Virus record (IMG/VR): IMGVR_UViG_3300037193_002967
Location: 1 to 64,000 of that record
DNA from: a virus
DNA: 64,000 nucleotides
Reading direction: 5' to 3' (one strand)
Part shown: piece after piece, positions 21,773 through 27,826 of the stretch
Position numbering within the stretch: the first letter of the stretch is position 1
How the letters are laid out: each line of letters begins with the position of its first letter
Notes under the pieces: model-generated
Database searches by the model: none
Told to the model about the DNA's origin: nothing
The model's input: the letters and a program-made list of their open reading frames with translations, nothing else
Translations under genes and position numbers: made by a program

Positions 21773-22252
21773 ATGTTTAACACTAAAGCGCAACAACAAC
21801 GAAAAATTCAACAAACCCACCACGAAATTGATACGAACCCCATGACACCTGAAGAATTAATGAAGCCACGGTATAAGGTAATCGCTGATTATCCACTAAG
21901 TAGATTTATAATAGGGTCTATTGTAGAAGGACAAAAAGGCAGATTTGATGAATGGTTTTTTGAAATAAATGGTAAAGAACTTCCATTCGACATAACACAA
22001 TACCCGCATCTCTTCAAAAAGCTGGAATGGTGGGAAGAAAGAAAGCTGGAAGAAATGCCGCAGTATGTGAAGGAATTCAATTCATTATATAAGATTGGGG
22101 AAGTCATAAAAGTTGCCGAATGGAACATGGGAGATGAAGAGCCCAATATACCTTGTTTTAGAGATGAGACGGATAATTCTTTTACATGGGTTCGTGGCTT
22201 TCATCCTGCCACCGAGGAAGAATATAATGCATACATAACTCAAATAACATGA
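21773..22252 (+). CDS. Hypothetical protein
   Basis: 'PRYKVIADYP...YPHLFKKLEWWEER' phage-type motif. Confidence 0.6.
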   Translation: MFNTKAQQQRKIQQTHHEIDTNPMTPEELMKPRYKVIADYPLSRFIIGSIVEGQKGRFDEWFFEINGKELPFDITQYPHLFKKLEWWEERKLEEMPQYVKEFNSLYKIGEVIKVAEWNMGDEEPNIPCFRDETDNSFTWVRGFHPATEEEYNAYITQIT

Positions 22253-23457
22253 AAAAACAATTGTTACTATTCATTCTTTTCTTAGTGGCCTTTATAGCGA
22301 ATGCGCAGACTTTTCCGATAAAGATCGACGCTATTCGATATGATGCGATGTTAGGAGTTGCTGTAGAAGAAAGTCTTGAGGGCGGAATGCATGTAACAAA
22401 TGTTAACGCCGGTGATTACATTGATTTCAAGATCAACATCCAAACCGACGCAGTGTATTTCTTCAAGGTGCGAACCGCTGGCCATGGTGGCATGCACGGT
22501 GGGATATTACAAATCCGTGATTCCGCCAATAGAATTTTGGGTACGATTAAAACGCCACCCACCCAAAATAAGCAAGCGTTTGCTATAGGAGCAGGCCGGA
22601 TTCGAATGCTTCCTGGATATAGAACCTACCGAATATACGCGATAACTGAAATCTTAAATTTCAAATCGATTGAAATTGATACGTCCAACTACCGGCACTA
22701 CATGACCTTCACGCCGCTGGTGGCCGGCAACAGCACCTGGGAGAATACCCATGATGTTAATGGTTGGATCAAAGAGATCAATAACGCCCGCCCTGCTGCC
22801 GCTACGATCGTCGAGAACCCCTTTGGGAAACCCGGCTGGGCGATGAAGTTCGAGCAGCGGAAGACTGATACCCCTGCGGCTGTGAGGGCTGAAATGAGGT
22901 TAACGAGTCTTTCTAATGAGCCGAGGGAGGGGTGGTGGAGTTGGAGTGAATACTTGCCATCTGAAGATTGGGCGGCGTCCGACCCGCATCAGGACGTTTC
23001 GGGGCAATGGCATGAGCGGCCAGATTTTCATTTAGGTGAAACATGGCGAAGCCCGCCAATTATGAAAAAAATTCAGAATGGAAAATATTGGGTGAATATT
23101 ATTTGGGCATCCGCTGCCGTCAACAGCAATCCATTCAGCTATGATGGACAGGCAACTATTGATTGTGGCCCTGTGTTGACTGATCAATGGGTTGATTGGG
23201 TATTTCACATTAAGTACGCTTACGACAATACCGGTATTCTGGAAGTCTGGAAGAATGGAGTTAAAGTGGTAGAAAGGATCAACATGCCGAACAGTTTCAA
23301 CGATGTTGATGTGCCGTATTTTAAGATCGGTGTATATAAAGGCGCATGGTGCTGCGCGGAATATCACGCCACATCCCCGGGCACGAAAAGAACTATATAT
23401 ATCCGCAACGTGAAAATAGGCAAACCGAATAGTTTTTATAATGAAATGAAACAGTAA
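22249..23457 (+). CDS. Secreted CBM6-like plus polysaccharide lyase-family protein
   Basis: Signal peptide 'MKKQLLLFILFLVAFIANA|Q'; CBM-like N-domain; 'RAE', 'QWH', 'WVDWVFHIK.....GILEVWKNG' and 'PYFKIGVYK' jelly-roll lyase motifs. Confidence 0.75.
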   Translation: MKKQLLLFILFLVAFIANAQTFPIKIDAIRYDAMLGVAVEESLEGGMHVTNVNAGDYIDFKINIQTDAVYFFKVRTAGHGGMHGGILQIRDSANRILGTIKTPPTQNKQAFAIGAGRIRMLPGYRTYRIYAITEILNFKSIEIDTSNYRHYMTFTPLVAGNSTWENTHDVNGWIKEINNARPAAATIVENPFGKPGWAMKFEQRKTDTPAAVRAEMRLTSLSNEPREGWWSWSEYLPSEDWAASDPHQDVSGQWHERPDFHLGETWRSPPIMKKIQNGKYWVNIIWASAAVNSNPFSYDGQATIDCGPVLTDQWVDWVFHIKYAYDNTGILEVWKNGVKVVERINMPNSFNDVDVPYFKIGVYKGAWCCAEYHATSPGTKRTIYIRNVKIGKPNSFYNEMKQ

Positions 23458-23737: not shown

Positions 23738-24140
23738 TTTAATACCAAAAAACAAAAAGCTAGACTCGTTTTCTGTAGGATGGCTTACATGGCCAATGTT
23801 TCTTCAAGAAACAGGTATGGGGTATATATTAGGCTATGGAACAGGGATGAAGCCCGGCAGCTATGTTTATCAGGGTGGTAACAATGGATCACCATCATCA
23901 AATGATGGATATAAGGTTTCATCAAAAGAAGCGAAGATGATGGCGGCCGTTGCTCGTGGATATGTGTCAGTACAAAGGTATGTCAATAAAGAATGGGAAG
24001 CTATACCAGCCGAACAGTTACCTAGCTACGAAAATGCACAAGCAGGGATATATCGGGCCAAGATTCACGAAGATCATTTAGTGAAACTTGAAAAATTTGC
24101 TGACTTCGCAGAAGAATCGGGTGGCTTTTCAATTAATTAA
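23727..24140 (+). CDS. Hypothetical protein
   Basis: 'MGYDL...SNDGYKVS...FAEESGGFSI' phage family; ATG at 23727. Confidence 0.6.
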   Translation: MGYDLIPKNKKLDSFSVGWLTWPMFLQETGMGYILGYGTGMKPGSYVYQGGNNGSPSSNDGYKVSSKEAKMMAAVARGYVSVQRYVNKEWEAIPAEQLPSYENAQAGIYRAKIHEDHLVKLEKFADFAEESGGFSIN

Positions 24141-24152
24141 ACACCATCAACA

Positions 24153-24500
24153 ATGCAAAAGGAAACAATATTTGAAATGAATGAAGTGATTGCCCGGTTT
24201 ATGGCGCTTGAAGAACGACATGACGAGTGGCGAGCACCGCATCCAACCCTTGTATTTCTTTATGATAATGCGTGGACGCCAGTACCTCGACTAAAATACC
24301 ATTCATCATGGGATTGGATCATACCAGTTTGGATCAAGTTCAGAAAATTAGAGTTAGATAATAAATATTTTTCCGAATGGTGTAATAGTTTAAGCTGGTA
24401 TTTATATAGTTCGGACGAACCTTCTCGCTTTGCAGAAAGACTATATTATGCTATTCAATGGTATAATAAATACAGTAACTCGTACTCAAATTTGTGTTGA
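24153..24500 (+). CDS. Hypothetical protein
   Basis: 'NEVIARFM...KYHSSWDWIIPV' motif. Confidence 0.6.
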   Translation: MQKETIFEMNEVIARFMALEERHDEWRAPHPTLVFLYDNAWTPVPRLKYHSSWDWIIPVWIKFRKLELDNKYFSEWCNSLSWYLYSSDEPSRFAERLYYAIQWYNKYSNSYSNLC

Positions 24501-24581
24501 GTAAAGTGGAGTATAGTACTGCTATGTAATGTCGGGTGCCGTTCAGTGATGCGCCGTTATGTCTAGTATTGTAAAGTTTTT
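24495..24581 (+). ncRNA. (NGY-NN)n 5-nt periodic unit U0, putative guide RNA
   Basis: 17 consecutive GY dinucleotides exactly every 5 nt (24496-24577), ending in a T-run. Confidence 0.75.
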
Positions 24582-24596
24582 AAAACAATAAAGTAT

Positions 24597-25163
24597 ATGA
24601 TCTACACAGTAAAAATCGAAGGCGTTACGCCTTATATGCAACATCGCATGGACGATGTTAAATTAGCCGACTGGGAAAAGAACCGCAAACAGATCATCGA
24701 ACGTCCGGATGTGGCCCTCGAAGATGCAAAGCGGGCGGAATATCATTGTTACAGAAATAAAGATGGGCATTGCTATATCCCATCAGAACAGCTTAGAATA
24801 GCTATGATCAATGGAGGCACTTACTTAAAAAGTAAAGTTGGTACTAAAACCAAAAGTATGAAAGGCATTATTGCCGCTGTTCTTCAAATCACCCCTGAGC
24901 AAATATTGCTGCCAGATTATGATGAAATTGATAAAAGGTCAGCCGTAAATAAAAATGTTAAAGCCAGGGTAATGGTGATCCGCCCAAAATGGTCCCAGTG
25001 GGAAACCCAGTTTGATATGATCTTGGATAATGGGACTCTTACAAAAGAAATGCTTACAGAACTTGTAAATGTTACTGGTAATTATGTAGGCATCGGAAGT
25101 TATCGGCCTACTAACAATGGGTATTTTGGTAGATTCAAATTAAATGATATTTGCATAAAGTAG
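24597..25163 (+). CDS. Stand-alone RAMP/Cas7-like protein (Vipr-like)
   Basis: N-terminal 'VKIEGVTPYMQH', 'YIPSEQLRIAMING', 'IRPKW..WETQF' and C-terminal Gly-rich loop 'VGIGSYRPTNNGYFGRF' typical of the RAMP fold; no other cas genes nearby. Confidence 0.75.
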   Translation: MIYTVKIEGVTPYMQHRMDDVKLADWEKNRKQIIERPDVALEDAKRAEYHCYRNKDGHCYIPSEQLRIAMINGGTYLKSKVGTKTKSMKGIIAAVLQITPEQILLPDYDEIDKRSAVNKNVKARVMVIRPKWSQWETQFDMILDNGTLTKEMLTELVNVTGNYVGIGSYRPTNNGYFGRFKLNDICIK

Positions 25164-25253
25164 AGTGATGCGATGTTTTGCGGAGTAACGCAATGTTATG
25201 CTAAGTCACGTCAAGCGCAATGAAGTAACGTCCTGTACCGTATAGATTTTTTT
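25159..25253 (+). ncRNA. (NGY-NN)n periodic unit U1
   Basis: GY at 16 of 17 five-nt steps (25160-25241); ends CGT-AT-AGA-TTTTTTT. Confidence 0.75.
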
Positions 25254-25262
25254 AAATAATAA

Positions 25263-25352
25263 AGTAGCGTCGCGTTACGTTGGGCTAAGTTAGGTGGCTG
25301 TGATGTAGGGCAAGGTGTTGTGGGGCGAAGCGCAGTTTAGTATAGATTTTTT
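25263..25352 (+). ncRNA. (NGY-NN)n periodic unit U2
   Basis: 16 GY at 5-nt spacing with one 1-nt slip near 25298; ends AGT-TT-AGT-AT-AGA-TTTTTT. Confidence 0.75.
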
Positions 25353-25383
25353 AAATTTACTTAATTAAGATATTTTATTTTGT

Positions 25384-25490
25384 TGCGATGCAATGTTATG
25401 TCATGTAAAGAAATGTACGGTGGAGCAAAGTAATGTCAAGCCACGTGTAGTATCGTCAAGTCAAGAATAGTAAAGTTTAGTATTGATTTT
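25384..25490 (+). ncRNA. (NGY-NN)n periodic unit U3
   Basis: G at every 5th base from 25385 to 25485; ends AGT-TT-AGT-AT-TGA-TTTT. Confidence 0.75.
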
Positions 25491-25518
25491 ATAGCCACTA
25501 AAAATATTTTTATTATAC

Positions 25519-25648
25519 TGCTGTGCGTAGTTATGCGTGGCGGCGTAATGTTAAGTTGTGTAAAGTGGAGTTTAGTAAAATAAGGTGGAGTAAAGTAATG
25601 TCAGGCCACGTGTTGTATGGTAAGGTCAAGTTTAGTATAGATTTTTTT
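25519..25648 (+). ncRNA. (NGY-NN)n periodic unit U4
   Basis: GY at 23 of 24 steps (25520-25636); ends AGT-TT-AGT-AT-AGA-TTTTTTT. Confidence 0.75.
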
Positions 25649-25662
25649 CAAATAAAAGAACA

Positions 25663-26319
25663 ATGGAGAATAGCAAACTACCAGGTGAGGTAAAGAAAAA
25701 AATAAGGCATTCAGCACATCGAGCAACTGATGCCGAAGAAGCCCGCTTGAAACAGAAGAATATTGACTATGGCCGCATGATTAGCCATTTGGGTGGTTTT
25801 ACCGTTGGCCACATTGCTGGCGCTATTGAATGGGCAGAAAAATGGTGGGAGGTGTACGAGGAAAACGGAAGAATGGCAATGAAGGTTACTGAGCTGTGGG
25901 AAGAGAACGAGAATCTGAAGAAACAACTTAATCACTATGAACTTTTTGAAATAAATATCAAAGCTGGGATGCCTGAAAATGAGGCTTCATTCCAGTCTGG
26001 ATATACTTGTGGTCACGATGTCGCAGAGGATAAGTTAAAGAAGGAGAGCGAGAGGCTGAAGGCGGCACTGAATAAAATCATTAACGTATATCCATCGGTA
26101 ACTGGCGCTAACAGAATGCGTGATATAGCGGCCGAGGCACTGGCATCAAAGGGAAAGGAGGGAGAGAAAAAGATAGTGATAGGCGAAGCACCGGACCTGG
26201 GCGATTGCAAAGAGTGCAAGACAGCGAAAGCTGAACACGATTATAACGGCCATCAGTATTACGTCTGCAATACGTGCTTTGATCGGCTGTCCCGAGAATT
26301 CGAAGACGAATATCAGTAA
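25663..26319 (+). CDS. Hypothetical mosaic protein with C-terminal CxxC/CxxC zinc finger
   Basis: CKEC...CNTC. Confidence 0.6.
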   Translation: MENSKLPGEVKKKIRHSAHRATDAEEARLKQKNIDYGRMISHLGGFTVGHIAGAIEWAEKWWEVYEENGRMAMKVTELWEENENLKKQLNHYELFEINIKAGMPENEASFQSGYTCGHDVAEDKLKKESERLKAALNKIINVYPSVTGANRMRDIAAEALASKGKEGEKKIVIGEAPDLGDCKECKTAKAEHDYNGHQYYVCNTCFDRLSREFEDEYQ

Positions 26320-26341
26320 GCACTAAACAATCAAAACAATA

Positions 26342-26596
26342 ATGGATAAGCAACAATGCCCTGAGTTCCCGCATTTCGGCGCACGTTACCCAGATGCGCG
26401 GTGTATTGATGGGTATCTATGGGATCTGGATTCAGATAATGATGGCATGTTTACTCGTGGTGGTGATGATCCGTGCCCGTTCTGTAATACCGAACAGTAC
26501 ATTGAATTTCTTTTGGATGAGCATAACGGTGTAACTAGGTCACAGATTGAGCAGCACATCCAACAACTTAGAAACCGTTACCAGCACCCAGACTAA
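26342..26596 (+). CDS. Hypothetical protein
   Basis: 'FGARYPDARCIDGYLWDLDS...PCPFCN' phage family. Confidence 0.6.
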   Translation: MDKQQCPEFPHFGARYPDARCIDGYLWDLDSDNDGMFTRGGDDPCPFCNTEQYIEFLLDEHNGVTRSQIEQHIQQLRNRYQHPD

Positions 26597-26716
26597 CCCC
26601 TCAAAAAGATAAATAATGGAAAAGTTTTGGACCGCAGCGGGCATTGGAGTTGTCATCCTCTGCTTTCTTTTAGGTATGGCATTGATCATTTACATCACAA
26701 ACAAATATGATAAATA

Positions 26717-27826
26717 ATGGAACAATACCCAGGCTCATATTATCAACCACTTTTCGACTATATACATGACCAGCATGGCACTCTGCTATTAGAAAGTGAG
26801 TGTCAAGAAATTATTGAAATTGTCAATAAGATGCAAGCCACCCAGCCGCCATCCAATACAGCGGTAGAGGAAGAAACAGTACCCGATCTTTCTGCGGCAA
26901 CAGACCAGGAAAAGGCCGATTTTATTAATGGTCTTATCAAAATTGCGTCCCGGGAGATTTTAAAGGTCTTTGTTATGCTGGGATTAAAGAGCCATATCGA
27001 AACTACAGTTGTTAATGAAGCTACCGGAGACGCATTTCTATTTAGCTTTCGGAAGAAGGGAGCCGCATCCACCCCACAAGGTGCAGCAGACCCCGAAGCA
27101 CTAACCATTGCCGATTACGAAGAAGTCTTAGCCGATCACCGCCGCCTGGTTCGAGAATTGGATACCATCATCAACGGCGAGAATGCAGCCAAACAAGCCA
27201 GTTTATGCGATATGGTGAAACAGTTAGAGAATGAATGGCCGAAGAGGCGAGGGGCGGTATGGGTGAATGGTGTTAAATGGCCGGAGGGGAGGCATAATGA
27301 GGTACACTGGCGTACCGTTCGCGATAAACACCCGGTACTTGTGGTTGGCAGAAATCATGTTGATAACATCGTAGCTCAATTCGGGAAGGTTTATCTGCCG
27401 TCAGACCTCGAATACCTCGACGAAAGCGGACTCCAATTTACTCAGGGTGATGCGGTATGGGTGAAGGGTGATTATGAGCGGTTGTATCATCAGATAAAAA
27501 GTGGGAAGCGCACGGTGTGTTTTATAGATTATACCCCATTCGGGCAAGATAAAACCTTCCGGGATATATGCACCATCAGAGCCGAAACAATGGAATTCAC
27601 CTCACGCGGCCACGGGTATGGCGGCGGCAAGTACCAGGATGCGGTTTATGAGAAAAAAGAATTTTTGGAGGAATGTAAGAAATTGAACGTCGAATGGCTC
27701 GACGAATCCCCATCAAACCAAAGCGATGCGGTGGAGTTCTTAGATTATCTACAGAAACATGGTTTTTATCTTTCCCTCATTTATAGTAATGAACAACTAT
27801 ACGATCAATTCAAAAACCAACCATAA
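26717..27826 (+). CDS. Mosaic hypothetical protein (Ead/Ea22-like cassette protein)
   Basis: Repeated 'AVWV.G...E.LDES' module boundaries. Confidence 0.6.
   Translation: MEQYPGSYYQPLFDYIHDQHGTLLLESECQEIIEIVNKMQATQPPSNTAVEEETVPDLSAATDQEKADFINGLIKIASREILKVFVMLGLKSHIETTVVNEATGDAFLFSFRKKGAASTPQGAADPEALTIADYEEVLADHRRLVRELDTIINGENAAKQASLCDMVKQLENEWPKRRGAVWVNGVKWPEGRHNEVHWRTVRDKHPVLVVGRNHVDNIVAQFGKVYLPSDLEYLDESGLQFTQGDAVWVKGDYERLYHQIKSGKRTVCFIDYTPFGQDKTFRDICTIRAETMEFTSRGHGYGGGKYQDAVYEKKEFLEECKKLNVEWLDESPSNQSDAVEFLDYLQKHGFYLSLIYSNEQLYDQFKNQP

What the first reader, a model, noticed from the sequence alone, without database searches (positions are those of the whole stretch)
25419..25628. Units U3 and U4 share a diverged 45-nt block in which NN is conserved and the scaffold base varies
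Seen: U3 25419-25463 reads ggt-GG-agc-AA-agt-AA-tgt-CA-agc-CA-cgt-GT-agt-AT-cgt-CA-agt-CA. U4 25584-25628 reads ggt-GG-agt-AA-agt-AA-tgt-CA-ggc-CA-cgt-GT-tgt-AT-ggt-AA-ggt-CA. Of the 6 differences, 4 fall at the first triplet position, 1 is a C/T swap at Y, and only 1 lies in an NN dinucleotide. Inference: the information is in NN, the first triplet base is nearly free, and guides diversify by duplication or in-register recombination of 5-nt modules. The two units may hit related or overlapping targets. The sample is small, so this is suggestive only.
Basis: partly seen in the sequence, partly recalled or inferred. Interest (0 to 1): 0.8.

Follow-up and report, generated by a model that had tools for sequence, protein, structure and literature searches.

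The report
Twin VIPR guide RNAs in phage
Two neighbouring guide RNAs of a phage's VIPR system, a recently described RNA-guided DNA-silencing machine, carry nearly the same address: the start of a small gene (DUF2188) found in prophages and bacterial defence islands, so their two-letter code words are conserved while the letters between them vary like the third letters of codons.

Summary
U3 25419-25463 and U4 25584-25628 read as stated, with 6 differences: 4 at x, 1 at Y, 1 in NN.

The locus is a VIPR system, described in 2026 preprints. The 188-aa ORF 24597-25163 is a Vipr (profile hit to the solved SUSP1 Vipr, E 6.5e-27; Cas7-like fold). Five xGY/NN arrays flank it in a complete 72-kb phage genome. 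The repeat is the non-canonical xGY form, which is already in print as YNNNG / WGT-NN.

The shared block belongs to a guide family also found in four related phages. Read by the published 1-nt-skip rule, the family's NN string falls on the first codons of DUF2188 genes (73 of 80 viral hits). U4 matches DUF2188 alleles from a Bacteroidota-phylum genome sample at 17/18 and U3 at 16/18. So U3 and U4 are paralogous guides for one site.

The view that x is nearly free is only partly right. In six homologous guides x varies in 5 of 6 columns, but NN plus the next x always spells the target's amino acid at two-fold codons (24/24), and ATG in 3 of 4 guides. x therefore behaves like a codon's third base. 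This is suggestive, not proven.

Verdict: new member of a known kind.

The parts
24495..24584 (+). U0: upstream vrRNA unit. About 14 guide modules of xGY/NN plus a tail (module-like units ending in a T-run). It overlaps the stop codon of ORF 24153-24500.
   Evidence: 5-nt register and periodicity scan
24597..25163 (+). vipr gene: 188-aa minimal RAMP (Cas7-like) that should coat the vrRNAs, one protomer per 5-nt repeat.
   Evidence: Profile hit to PDB 36pp_D 'SUSP1 Vipr protein', E 6.5e-27 over the full length; pairwise E 2.1e-7. AF2 model pLDDT 96.3. Foldseek top hits are Cas7/Csm3/Cas7-11. phrog_4652.
25159..25256 (+). U1: first downstream vrRNA unit (16 guide modules plus tail and T-run). 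Its start overlaps the vipr stop codon.
25263..25353 (+). U2: unit in two registers. There are 7 modules, one extra base at 25298, then 7 modules plus tail.
25384..25492 (+). U3: 16 guide modules plus tail.
25419..25463 (+). U3 block (the finding): 9 tail-proximal modules. NN plus the next x reads G-K-N-Q-H-V-I-Q-Q.
   Evidence: It matches DUF2188 gene starts at 16/18 NN in 11 of 31 loci taken from the Bacteroidota-phylum sample.
25464..25492 (+). U3 3' tail: module-like conserved units followed by a T-run.
   Evidence: Tail family D4/D6; the same tail type occurs in related loci.
25519..25650 (+). U4: 22 guide modules plus tail. This is longer than the published 9-16 repeats, so it may be two RNAs.
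25584..25628 (+). U4 block (the finding): 9 tail-proximal modules. NN plus the next x reads G-K-N-Q-H-V-M-K-Q.
   Evidence: It matches DUF2188 starts at 17/18 in 5 loci of the Bacteroidota-phylum sample and at 18/18 in 2 archaeal MAG loci.
25629..25650 (+). U4 3' tail and T-run.

Best explanation
The region is a VIPR (Viral Interference Programmable Repeat) locus in a complete 72-kb phage genome. It has a vipr gene (24597-25163) flanked by five vrRNA units, U0 upstream and U1-U4 downstream, all on the + strand.

Inferred from the SUSP1 system: each unit is transcribed into an unstructured RNA of about 90-130 nt. Vipr protomers coat it, one per 5-nt repeat. They sequester G and Y and present the variable letters to double-stranded DNA. 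Binding silences transcription.

In this clade the repeat is xGY/NN rather than GGY/NN.

The 45-nt block shared by U3 and U4 is the guide proper of two paralogous vrRNAs. Both address one site: the first nine or so codons of a DUF2188 gene. NN pairs with codon positions 1-2 on the template strand. DUF2188 is a small gene of prophages and of defence islands, where it sits next to type I R-M specificity genes and CBASS. NN is conserved because the target peptide G-K-N-Q-H-V is conserved.

My estimate is about 0.6 that x mirrors the third base of the target codon. On that view the U3/U4 differences look like two alleles of a protein-coding gene: synonymous third-base changes plus I/M and Q/K replacements. 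Whether x is actually read by pairing (about 0.3) or only carries the history of the guide is open.
For: Vipr identity:
- An HMM of 95 homologues hits PDB 36pp_D 'SUSP1 Vipr protein' at E 6.5e-27 over positions 1-183.
- The fold is RAMP-like, with 94 Foldseek matches at E<=1e-3 led by Cas7-family chains.
- tblastn finds homologues in 127 phage records, mostly Escherichia, Salmonella and Shigella phages including Felixounavirus. In phage wV8 the homologue is flanked by GGY/NN arrays.

Arrays:
- The periodicity is strict, on the + strand only, and found nowhere else in the genome.
- 92 of 101 loci (100 related loci plus the window's own) carry such arrays next to the gene.
- Over 3,137 modules G is 0.96, Y is T 0.87 / C 0.12, and x is A .41 / T .34 / G .14 / C .11.

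Structural rationale for xGY: the SUSP1 contacts to G2 and Y3 are kept (R138->R129, W178->Y169, R179->R170). Of the two G1 contacts, D177 is Ser168 here while H17 is kept as H16.

Target:
- The family NN string, searched with the 1-nt-skip rule in IMG/VR, gave at least 82 stretches. The two other 16-base patterns I tried gave 7 and 6.
- 73 of the 80 stretches examined lie within four codons of a start codon of a ~74-aa ORF (48 distinct proteins). Two of these tested are Pfam DUF2188, E 8.5e-27 and 7e-26.
- The best site for U3 and U4 in 3.2-kb DUF2188 loci of a 401-genome Bacteroidota-phylum sample is that same gene start: 16/18 and up to 17/18. Loci without the motif give 12-14.

No self-target:
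- Own-genome best scores at skip 0-2 stay within the range of shuffled guides.
- No DUF2188 gene was found in the phage or in five relatives.

The guide has the sense of the mRNA, so it cannot act as an antisense RNA. That fits DNA recognition.

Evidence that x behaves as a third base:
- In six guides NN+x spells K, N, Q and H at 24/24 two-fold cells. It spells ATG in 3 of the 4 guides that reach the start codon.
- Other guide families decode to M-Y-R-D-K-E-R-G in L008/L070. L012, read antisense, decodes to M/L-L-S-P-S-S-I-Q, and its x differences are synonymous.
- x depends on the preceding NN (chi2 p 3.6e-5) but not on the following NN (p 0.10).
- The codon-likeness of NN+next x exceeds x-shuffles: z 2.65, P 0.0025.
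Against: - No RNA data. No RNA run was found to hold the region, so transcription, RNA ends and Vipr binding are inferred from the SUSP1 work.
- No 18/18 DUF2188 target for U3 was found in any collection.
- The exact 9-module pattern gave only scattered sites in IMG/VR: 6 stretches, 4 distinct, none at a gene start.
- In the genome collection only 2 of 85 hits were DUF2188 starts. Both are in Methanomassiliicoccaceae MAGs, which are unlikely hosts.
- The host is unknown. The Vipr profile was found in 0 of the 401 genomes searched in the Bacteroidota-phylum sample.
- The 5' modules of U4 (13) match nothing upstream of DUF2188 alleles: mean 7.5 of 26, which is chance. Those of U3 do only slightly better: mean 5.5 of 14, best 10 of 14.
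- U4 has 22 guide modules, against the 9-16 published.
- No conserved accessory (vap) gene and no structured tail.

Against the x reading:
- The exact identity of x to the third base of available alleles is not raised: mean 3.5 of 9 for U3 and 3.1 of 9 for U4, maximum 6.
- The stop-codon test is borderline, P 0.055-0.077.
- The antisense codon test is null, z 0.25.
- The chi-square and codon tests are confounded, because N1, N2 and x are physically adjacent in the phage's own DNA.
- The six guides share descent, so the 24/24 cells are not 24 independent events.
- One guide (L034) reads ATT where ATG is expected.
Confidence: 0.8

Rival explanations
1. x is a free scaffold position that the protein does not read and that drifts neutrally. 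Its compatibility with the target's codons is coincidence plus shared descent and transition-biased mutation.
For: - x varies in 5 of 6 columns among six homologous guides and in 4 of 9 between U3 and U4.
- In SUSP1 the equivalent base is flipped out and takes no part in pairing, and the target's third base sits in a protein pocket.
- The exact identity of x to the third base of available DUF2188 alleles is near chance, 3.1-3.5 of 9.
- The stop-codon test is not significant.
- The global dependence tests are confounded by adjacency.
Against: - The same NN is followed by a purine in one column and a pyrimidine in the next, in all six guides. AA is followed by R and then by Y; CA is followed by R and then by Y. 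This matches K, N, Q and H (24/24 cells).
- ATG is spelled in 3 of 4 guides although G is only 0.14 at x.
- Transversions occur at four-fold codons but none at two-fold codons in that family.
- Start-codon readings also appear in two other guide families.
Confidence: 0.4
2. The block is simply a recent tandem duplication inside the array with no constraint. The distribution of the six differences is sampling noise.
For: The excess at x is only p = 0.03 for this pair alone. The two units are neighbours in one array.
Against: The same NN string is kept in guides of four other phages whose Vipr proteins are only 79-86% identical to this one. Meanwhile x and Y vary in 5 of 6 columns. The flanks of the block are unrelated between U3 and U4. 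The string also lands on a conserved gene start.
Confidence: 0.05
3. U3 and U4 do not address DUF2188. The match comes from a low-complexity, A-rich NN string, and the real target lies in an unsampled element of the unknown host.
For: U3 has no perfect DUF2188 match. The only perfect matches for U4 are in archaeal MAGs. The host is unknown.
Against: Four guides sharing the first six modules carry the full M-G-K-N-Q-H-V-V-P string, and 73 of 80 hits to it are DUF2188-type gene starts. In 3.2-kb loci the best U3 and U4 site coincides with that start, at 16-17 of 18. This passes the 80% threshold used in the VIPR preprint.
Confidence: 0.1
4. The repeats act as DNA (iterons or protein-binding sites) or are translated, rather than serving as guide RNAs.
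For: A 56-aa ORF overlaps U4 at 25523-25693. There is no direct RNA evidence.
Against: The arrays lie on one strand only and end in T-runs. In 92 of 101 loci they sit next to a homologue of an RNA-binding RAMP whose relative co-purifies with such RNAs. A 5-nt period breaks any reading frame. The neighbouring ORFs are not conserved.
Confidence: 0.03

Closest known systems
Type II VIPR of Escherichia phage SUSP1 (bioRxiv 10.64898/2026.04.26.720920 and 10.64898/2026.04.26.720927)
   Same: - Homologous Vipr protein.
- One vrRNA unit upstream and an array downstream.
- 5-nt repeats with variable NN, a conserved 3' end and no self-target.
- Targets in coding sequence, with the skipped base at the wobble position.
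   Different: - The first scaffold base is variable (xGY, not GGY), and the G1-contacting Asp is Ser here.
- The tail is short and predicted unstructured, with no pseudoknot.
- No conserved vap gene.
- U4 has 22 guide repeats.
- The target is a DUF2188 gene rather than a satellite or a lysis-lysogeny regulator.
Non-canonical VIPR arrays: 'YNNNG' repeats (methods of 10.64898/2026.04.26.720920) and 'WGT/NN' motifs (10.64898/2026.10.21.760802, passages)
   Same: The repeat consensus here, with x mostly A/T followed by G and T/C, is this kind. It lies next to a Vipr-like fold.
   Different: In the passages I could read, the variable first base is treated as degeneracy of the fixed trinucleotide. 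No targeting rule or natural target is given for this kind.
Class 1 CRISPR backbone (Cas7 filament on crRNA)
   Same: RAMP fold, a G-rich loop, a thumb that breaks the guide-target duplex periodically, and one protomer per repeat of the guide.
   Different: There is no CRISPR repeat-spacer array. No other cas gene family was recognised among the eight neighbouring ORFs scanned with Pfam. The period is 5 nt with 2 or 3 informative letters, rather than 6 nt with 5.

Membership tests
VIPR system | Vipr protein homologous to a characterised Vipr | tested here: met
   Profile of 95 homologues against PDB 36pp_D 'SUSP1 Vipr protein': E 6.5e-27 over the full length. Single sequence: E 2.1e-7.
VIPR system | Minimal RAMP fold (RRM core, glycine-rich loop, thumb) | tested here: met
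   AF2 model pLDDT 96.3. Foldseek gives 94 PDB matches at E<=1e-3, led by Cas7/Csm3/Cas7-11. G165, G178, R129, R170 and P171 are invariant or nearly so in 95 sequences. The thumb was not delimited by me.
VIPR system | Tandem 5-nt repeats with a fixed part and variable NN, flanking vipr | tested here: met
   Five units here. Arrays are present in 92 of 101 loci, the window's own included.
VIPR system (canonical, type II) | Fixed trinucleotide is GGY | tested here: not met
   The first base is A .41 / T .34 / G .14 / C .11 over 3,137 modules. This matches the published non-canonical YNNNG / WGT-NN kind instead.
VIPR system | Invariable 3' tail after the repeats (a pseudoknot in the SUSP1 clade) | tested here: inconclusive
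   A conserved tail and T-run are present. No unit folds better than shuffles, with z from -0.99 to +1.08.
VIPR system | Natural targets obey the 1-nt-skip rule, mostly in coding sequence with the skip at wobble | tested here: met
   Guide-family pattern: 73 of 80 hits fall at DUF2188-type gene starts, in frame. U4 matches at 17/18 and U3 at 16/18.
VIPR system | No self-targeting | tested here: met
   Best own-genome scores at skip 0-2 lie within the range of shuffled guides.
VIPR system | vrRNAs are expressed and bound by Vipr, and binding silences the target | not testable with these tools
   No RNA run was listed as holding the region. The DNA contigs laid on it were identical to the window.
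VIPR system | Accessory vap gene beside vipr (used to define the types) | tested here: not met
   None of five neighbouring ORFs has a tblastn match (E<=1e-5) in any of 100 related loci. No Pfam family was found for the ORFs directly beside vipr and the arrays. The VIPR type could not be assigned.
CRISPR-Cas | Array of 25-40-nt direct repeats separated by unique spacers | tested here: not met
   The repeat search finds only the 5-nt-periodic units and their tails.

The most novel reading that the evidence does not exclude
In this Ser-Tyr G-loop clade of Vipr, the repeat is GY + NNN and all three variable letters carry target information. The base after NN stays stacked and pairs with what SUSP1 treats as the skipped base. 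Five guide letters would then read three contiguous target letters. A phage would keep paralogous guides such as U3 and U4 to cover synonymous and near-synonymous alleles. The addressed gene, DUF2188, sits inside host defence islands: directly after type I R-M specificity genes, and upstream of CBASS in one locus examined. That would make this a phage using RNA-guided silencing against host immunity rather than against a rival element.
Probability: 0.25. Interest if true: 0.75.

Novelty: new member of a known kind. Interest (0 to 1): 0.5.

Why it matters
VIPR is a months-old discovery, and its code has been worked out only for GGY/NN guides of enterobacterial and Pseudomonas phages. This locus gives a natural, cross-phage guide family of the non-canonical xGY kind, with an identifiable and very conserved target.

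That makes three questions directly testable:
- Does the variable first base carry information?
- How do guide paralogues arise and divide alleles between them?
- Do phages aim VIPR at defence-island genes?

If the third letter is read, the design rules for this small programmable DNA binder would differ between clades.

Tried and rejected
- Rfam at permissive E-values: five sub-threshold chance hits, none on the arrays.
- blastn against phage records: only a short match in another ORF.
- Pfam: nothing for the 188-aa ORF.
- Exact 9-module U3/U4 pattern in IMG/VR: 6 stretches, 4 distinct, none at a gene start.
- All 175 units scanned against the 80 DUF2188 loci: 3 units scored 9-10 against a control maximum of 8, and I did not list which.
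- Target scans for other guides found nothing convincing:
  - U0: 0 of 401 genomes with up to 3 mismatches, and 0 in IMG/VR.
  - L008 guide: 0 hits at 10 modules and 7 at 8 modules. Two of the seven are ORF starts with a similar peptide, but x agrees at only 2-3 of 8.
  - L030 guide: 6 scattered hits.
- Guide-level scan for more DUF2188-directed guides: only the contig of L002.
- Sequencing runs: no RNA holder listed. Four DNA runs of one study gave contigs identical to the window, so there is no population variation to tabulate by mod-5 position.
- Sigma-70 promoter and terminator scan: 8 promoter-like sites against 4.6 expected, and no terminator hairpin at the unit ends. This is not informative for this organism.
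- Vipr profile in 401 genomes of the Bacteroidota-phylum sample: none, so the host is not established.
- Stop-codon depletion in decoded guides: P 0.055-0.077, not significant.
- A seed-and-extend estimate of substitution rates, free of ascertainment, was considered and dropped because there are too few near-identical unit pairs.

Full report
**Observation.** They lie 165 nt apart, which is 33 five-letter modules and so in register. The six differences are four at the first position of the module (x), one C/T at Y, none at G and one in NN. On this pair alone the excess at x is modest (4/9 against 1/18, Fisher one-sided p = 0.030).

The similarity itself is far from chance. I compared all pairs of 175 unique units on NN only. 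18 pairs had six or more consecutive identical NN, against none when one partner's module order was reversed.

**What the region is.** The window is the first 64 kb of a 72,173-bp virus record with direct terminal repeats. Strict 5-nt periodicity (x-G-Y-N-N) occurs on the + strand only and in one place only. One unit (U0, about 24495-24584) lies upstream of a 188-aa ORF at 24597-25163, and four units (U1-U4, 25159-25650) lie downstream. Each unit ends in a few conserved module-like units and a T-run. None folds better than shuffled sequence, with z between -0.99 and +1.08. Rfam has nothing.

The ORF has no Pfam family and belongs to phrog_4652, of unknown function.

[quoted passage not shown] I read its abstract, Results, Discussion and methods sections 18, 20 and 27, plus searched passages. 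It describes VIPR systems:
- a ~20-kDa minimal RAMP, Vipr;
- vrRNAs of 9-16 GGY/NN repeats with a 3' tail, typically one upstream and an array downstream;
- recognition of double-stranded DNA in which NN pairs and one target base is skipped;
- targets mostly in coding sequence, with the skip at the wobble position;
- transcriptional silencing of rival mobile elements.

**Membership.**
- A profile of 95 homologues of the ORF hits the solved 'SUSP1 Vipr protein' (PDB 36pp_D) at E 6.5e-27 over its whole length. This was the only hit in the PDB sequence set. The single sequence gives E 2.1e-7.
- The AlphaFold model is confident (pLDDT 96.3). Its best structural matches are Cas7-family RAMPs: type VII Cas7, Csm3 and Cas7-11, with 94 matches at E<=1e-3.
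- Homologues occur in 127 phage records, mainly Escherichia, Salmonella and Shigella phages including Felixounavirus. In phage wV8 the homologue is flanked by canonical GGY/NN arrays.
- The family is large: 1,595 representatives at E<=1e-3.
- Taking 100 related loci from IMG/VR and metagenomes together with the window's own, 92 of 101 carry x-G-Y-N-N arrays beside the gene.

So this is a VIPR locus, but not the canonical kind. Over 3,137 modules G is 0.96 and Y is T 0.87 / C 0.12, while x is A .41, T .34, G .14, C .11. The preprint's methods mention alternative 'YNNNG' repeats. A later preprint (10.64898/2026.10.21.760802, passages only) lists 'WGT/NN' among non-canonical VIPR motifs. The repeat kind is therefore already in print.

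The structure preprint (10.64898/2026.04.26.720927; abstract and sections 5-6) says G1 is read by H17 and D177, G2 by R138 and W178, and Y3 by R179 among others. In my alignment R138, W178 and R179 correspond to R129, Y169 and R170, and H17 to H16, but D177 is Ser168. That is a simple rationale for a free first base. It is inference, not shown.

Other differences from SUSP1:
- None of five neighbouring ORFs is conserved in any of the 100 related loci, so I see no vap gene.
- U4 has 22 guide modules.
- U2 changes register by one base at 25298.

**What the shared block is.** In both units the block is the tail-proximal end of the guide region. The flanking 5' modules are unrelated. The same NN string occurs in one guide each of four related phages (L002, L031, L034, L040), whose Vipr proteins are 79-86% identical to this one. 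Over the six modules shared by all six guides, the variable columns are x 5/6, Y 5/6, G 0/6, N1 1/6 and N2 1/6.

**The target.** I wrote the four relatives' string as NN-skip-NN and scanned IMG/VR.
The two other patterns with 16 specified bases gave 7 and 6.
- Of the 80 stretches I examined, 73 lie within four codons of an in-frame start codon of a ~74-aa ORF beginning M(x)GKNQHVVP (48 distinct proteins). NN sits on codon positions 1-2.
- Two of these tested are Pfam DUF2188, E 8.5e-27 and 7e-26.

The exact nine-module string of U3/U4 did less well.
- In IMG/VR it gave 6 stretches, 4 distinct, none at a gene start.
- In the genome collection it gave 85 stretches, of which 2 are DUF2188 starts (G-K-K-Q-H-V-M-K-H). 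Both are in Methanomassiliicoccaceae MAGs and match U4 at 18/18. The other 83 are scattered.

DUF2188 was found in 73 of 401 genomes sampled from the phylum of an Algoriphagus genome, that is Bacteroidota. In 31 loci taken from that sample, the best site for U3 and U4 is the DUF2188 start wherever the motif is present:
- U4 matches 17/18 in 5 loci, and 19/20 by my reading with the preceding module included.
- U3 matches 16/18 in 11 loci.
- Loci without the motif give 12-14.

Both exceed the 80% threshold of the preprint. The phage has no self-target. Neither it nor five relatives carries a DUF2188 gene. The guides have the sense of the mRNA, so they cannot act as antisense RNAs.

I conclude, with about 0.85 confidence, that U3 and U4 are paralogous guides for the 5' end of DUF2188 genes. 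This explains why NN is conserved. The host is not established: the Vipr profile was found in none of the 401 genomes.

**Context of the target.** DUF2188 is uncharacterised. Passages of 10.1101/2022.04.27.489752 say it has been linked to defence and occurs with HTH and metallopeptidase regulators. They cite Burroughs & Aravind 2020, which I did not see.

I scanned 85 neighbouring ORFs in 30 loci of that Bacteroidota-phylum sample:
- 9 are type I R-M specificity subunits;
- 6 are IrrE/ImmA-type peptidases;
- 4 are patatin phospholipases and 4 are DncV-like cyclases (CBASS).

In L306 and L310 the DUF2188 start lies 2 nt after the hsdS stop. In L310 it lies just upstream of patatin plus cyclase. 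A Vipr filament there could block an operon. That the phage uses it against host defence is my inference. The words restriction-modification, CBASS, anti-defense and host defense do not occur in the main text of 10.64898/2026.10.15.759431. DUF2188 does not occur in 10.64898/2026.04.26.720920 or in any VIPR paper among the 13 that mention it.

**Is x free?** Evidence that it is not:
- Reading NN with the next x as a word, the six guides spell MKKNQHVVPP, MGKNQHVVP*, IGKNQHVVPE, MGKNQHVVPK, TGKNQHVIQQ (U3) and KGKNQHVMKQ (U4).
- At the four two-fold codons (K, N, Q, H), x is in the synonymous class in 24 of 24 cells. AA is followed by a purine in one column and a pyrimidine in the next, and likewise CA. 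A preference tied to NN cannot explain that.
- Transversions occur only at four-fold codons.
- ATG is spelled in 3 of the 4 guides that reach it, although G is rare at x.
- On this reading the U3/U4 differences are two synonymous third-base changes plus I/M and Q/K. That is what two alleles of a coding gene look like.
- Other families behave alike. L008/L070 decode to M-Y-R-D-K-E-R-G. The L012 paralogues, read antisense, decode to M/L-L-S-P-S-S-I-Q with synonymous x differences. L030 and L031 differ by one whole module, which is one codon.
- Dataset-wide, x depends on the preceding NN (chi2 p 3.6e-5) but not on the following NN (p 0.10).
- NN+next x is more codon-like than x-shuffles (z 2.65, P 0.0025), whereas pairing NN with the x of the same module is not.

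Evidence against:
- Those global tests are confounded, because the three letters are adjacent in the phage's own DNA.
- Stop codons are only marginally depleted, P 0.055-0.077.
- The antisense test is null.
- The six guides share descent.
- The exact identity of x to the third base of available alleles is near chance, 3.1-3.5 of 9.
- L034 reads ATT where ATG is expected.
- Attempts to obtain independent guide-target pairs failed.

I put about 0.6 on x reflecting the target's third base, and about 0.3 on it being read by pairing.

**Verdict.** The system is already known, and this locus is a new member of the non-canonical xGY kind. The useful additions are a conserved natural target, a clear case of guide paralogy, and a testable suspicion that the 'scaffold' base is the third letter of the code word.

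Noticed in passing
window 25263-25353 (U2): The unit changes register by one base at 25298: seven modules, an extra C, then seven modules plus tail. It may be two short or 'staggered' vrRNAs of the kind the VIPR preprint mentions.
   Followed up: no
P0001 residues 165-171; L014-L016 and L020; PDB 36pp_D: The two residues after G-x-G in the glycine-rich loop differ along with the fixed part of the repeat.
- D-W with GGY (SUSP1).
- S-Y with xGY (this clade).
- R-F with arrays periodic in CTC on the + strand downstream of the gene, and GAG upstream in L015.
- A-L with GAC-periodic arrays (L020).

   Followed up: partly
L306 and L310 (loci from genomes G124 and G088): DUF2188 genes that match U4 at 17/18 start 2 nt after a type I R-M specificity gene. 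In L310 the gene lies directly upstream of a patatin plus DncV-like cyclase (CBASS) pair. In L306 it lies upstream of HAD and Fic genes.
   Followed up: partly
L012 3563-3720 and 3758-3855: A second case of paralogous guides within one array. Ten modules are shared. Read antisense they spell a gene start (M or L, then L-S-P-S-S-I-Q), and the x differences are synonymous.
   Followed up: partly
L030 about 2100-2150, compared with L031 about 415-445: An otherwise identical run of guide modules differs by exactly one module. Decoded, this is G-L-L-W-E-E-T against G-L-L-W-E-T, a one-codon indel.
   Followed up: partly
L008 2782-2845 and L070 about 949; L280: These guides decode to M-Y-R-D-K-E-R-G-S-Y. 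One IMG/VR hit to their NN string is an ORF start reading M-S-I-Y-R-D-K-E-R-G-R-F. The gene was not identified.
   Followed up: partly
window 22249-23457: A 402-aa ORF with a CBM6 carbohydrate-binding module and a polysaccharide lyase domain. It is likely a capsule or exopolysaccharide depolymerase of the phage.
   Followed up: no
window 25663-26319: A 218-aa ORF directly after the array, with a C-terminal pair of CxxC motifs. It has no Pfam or PHROG family and is not found next to vipr in any of 100 related loci.
   Followed up: partly
window 26375-26494: This is the only stretch of 24000-27000 with DNA similarity to catalogued phages: about 73% identity to a hypothetical gene of five Vibrio phage records. 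The ORF 26342-26596 matches phrog_20542.
   Followed up: no
window 25384-25418 (U3 5' modules): The seven modules before the block match the ribosome-binding and start region of one proteobacterial-type DUF2188 locus (L167) at 10 of 14 NN. The mean over 92 sites is 5.5 of 14. U3 may therefore extend across the 5' UTR of its true target.
   Followed up: partly
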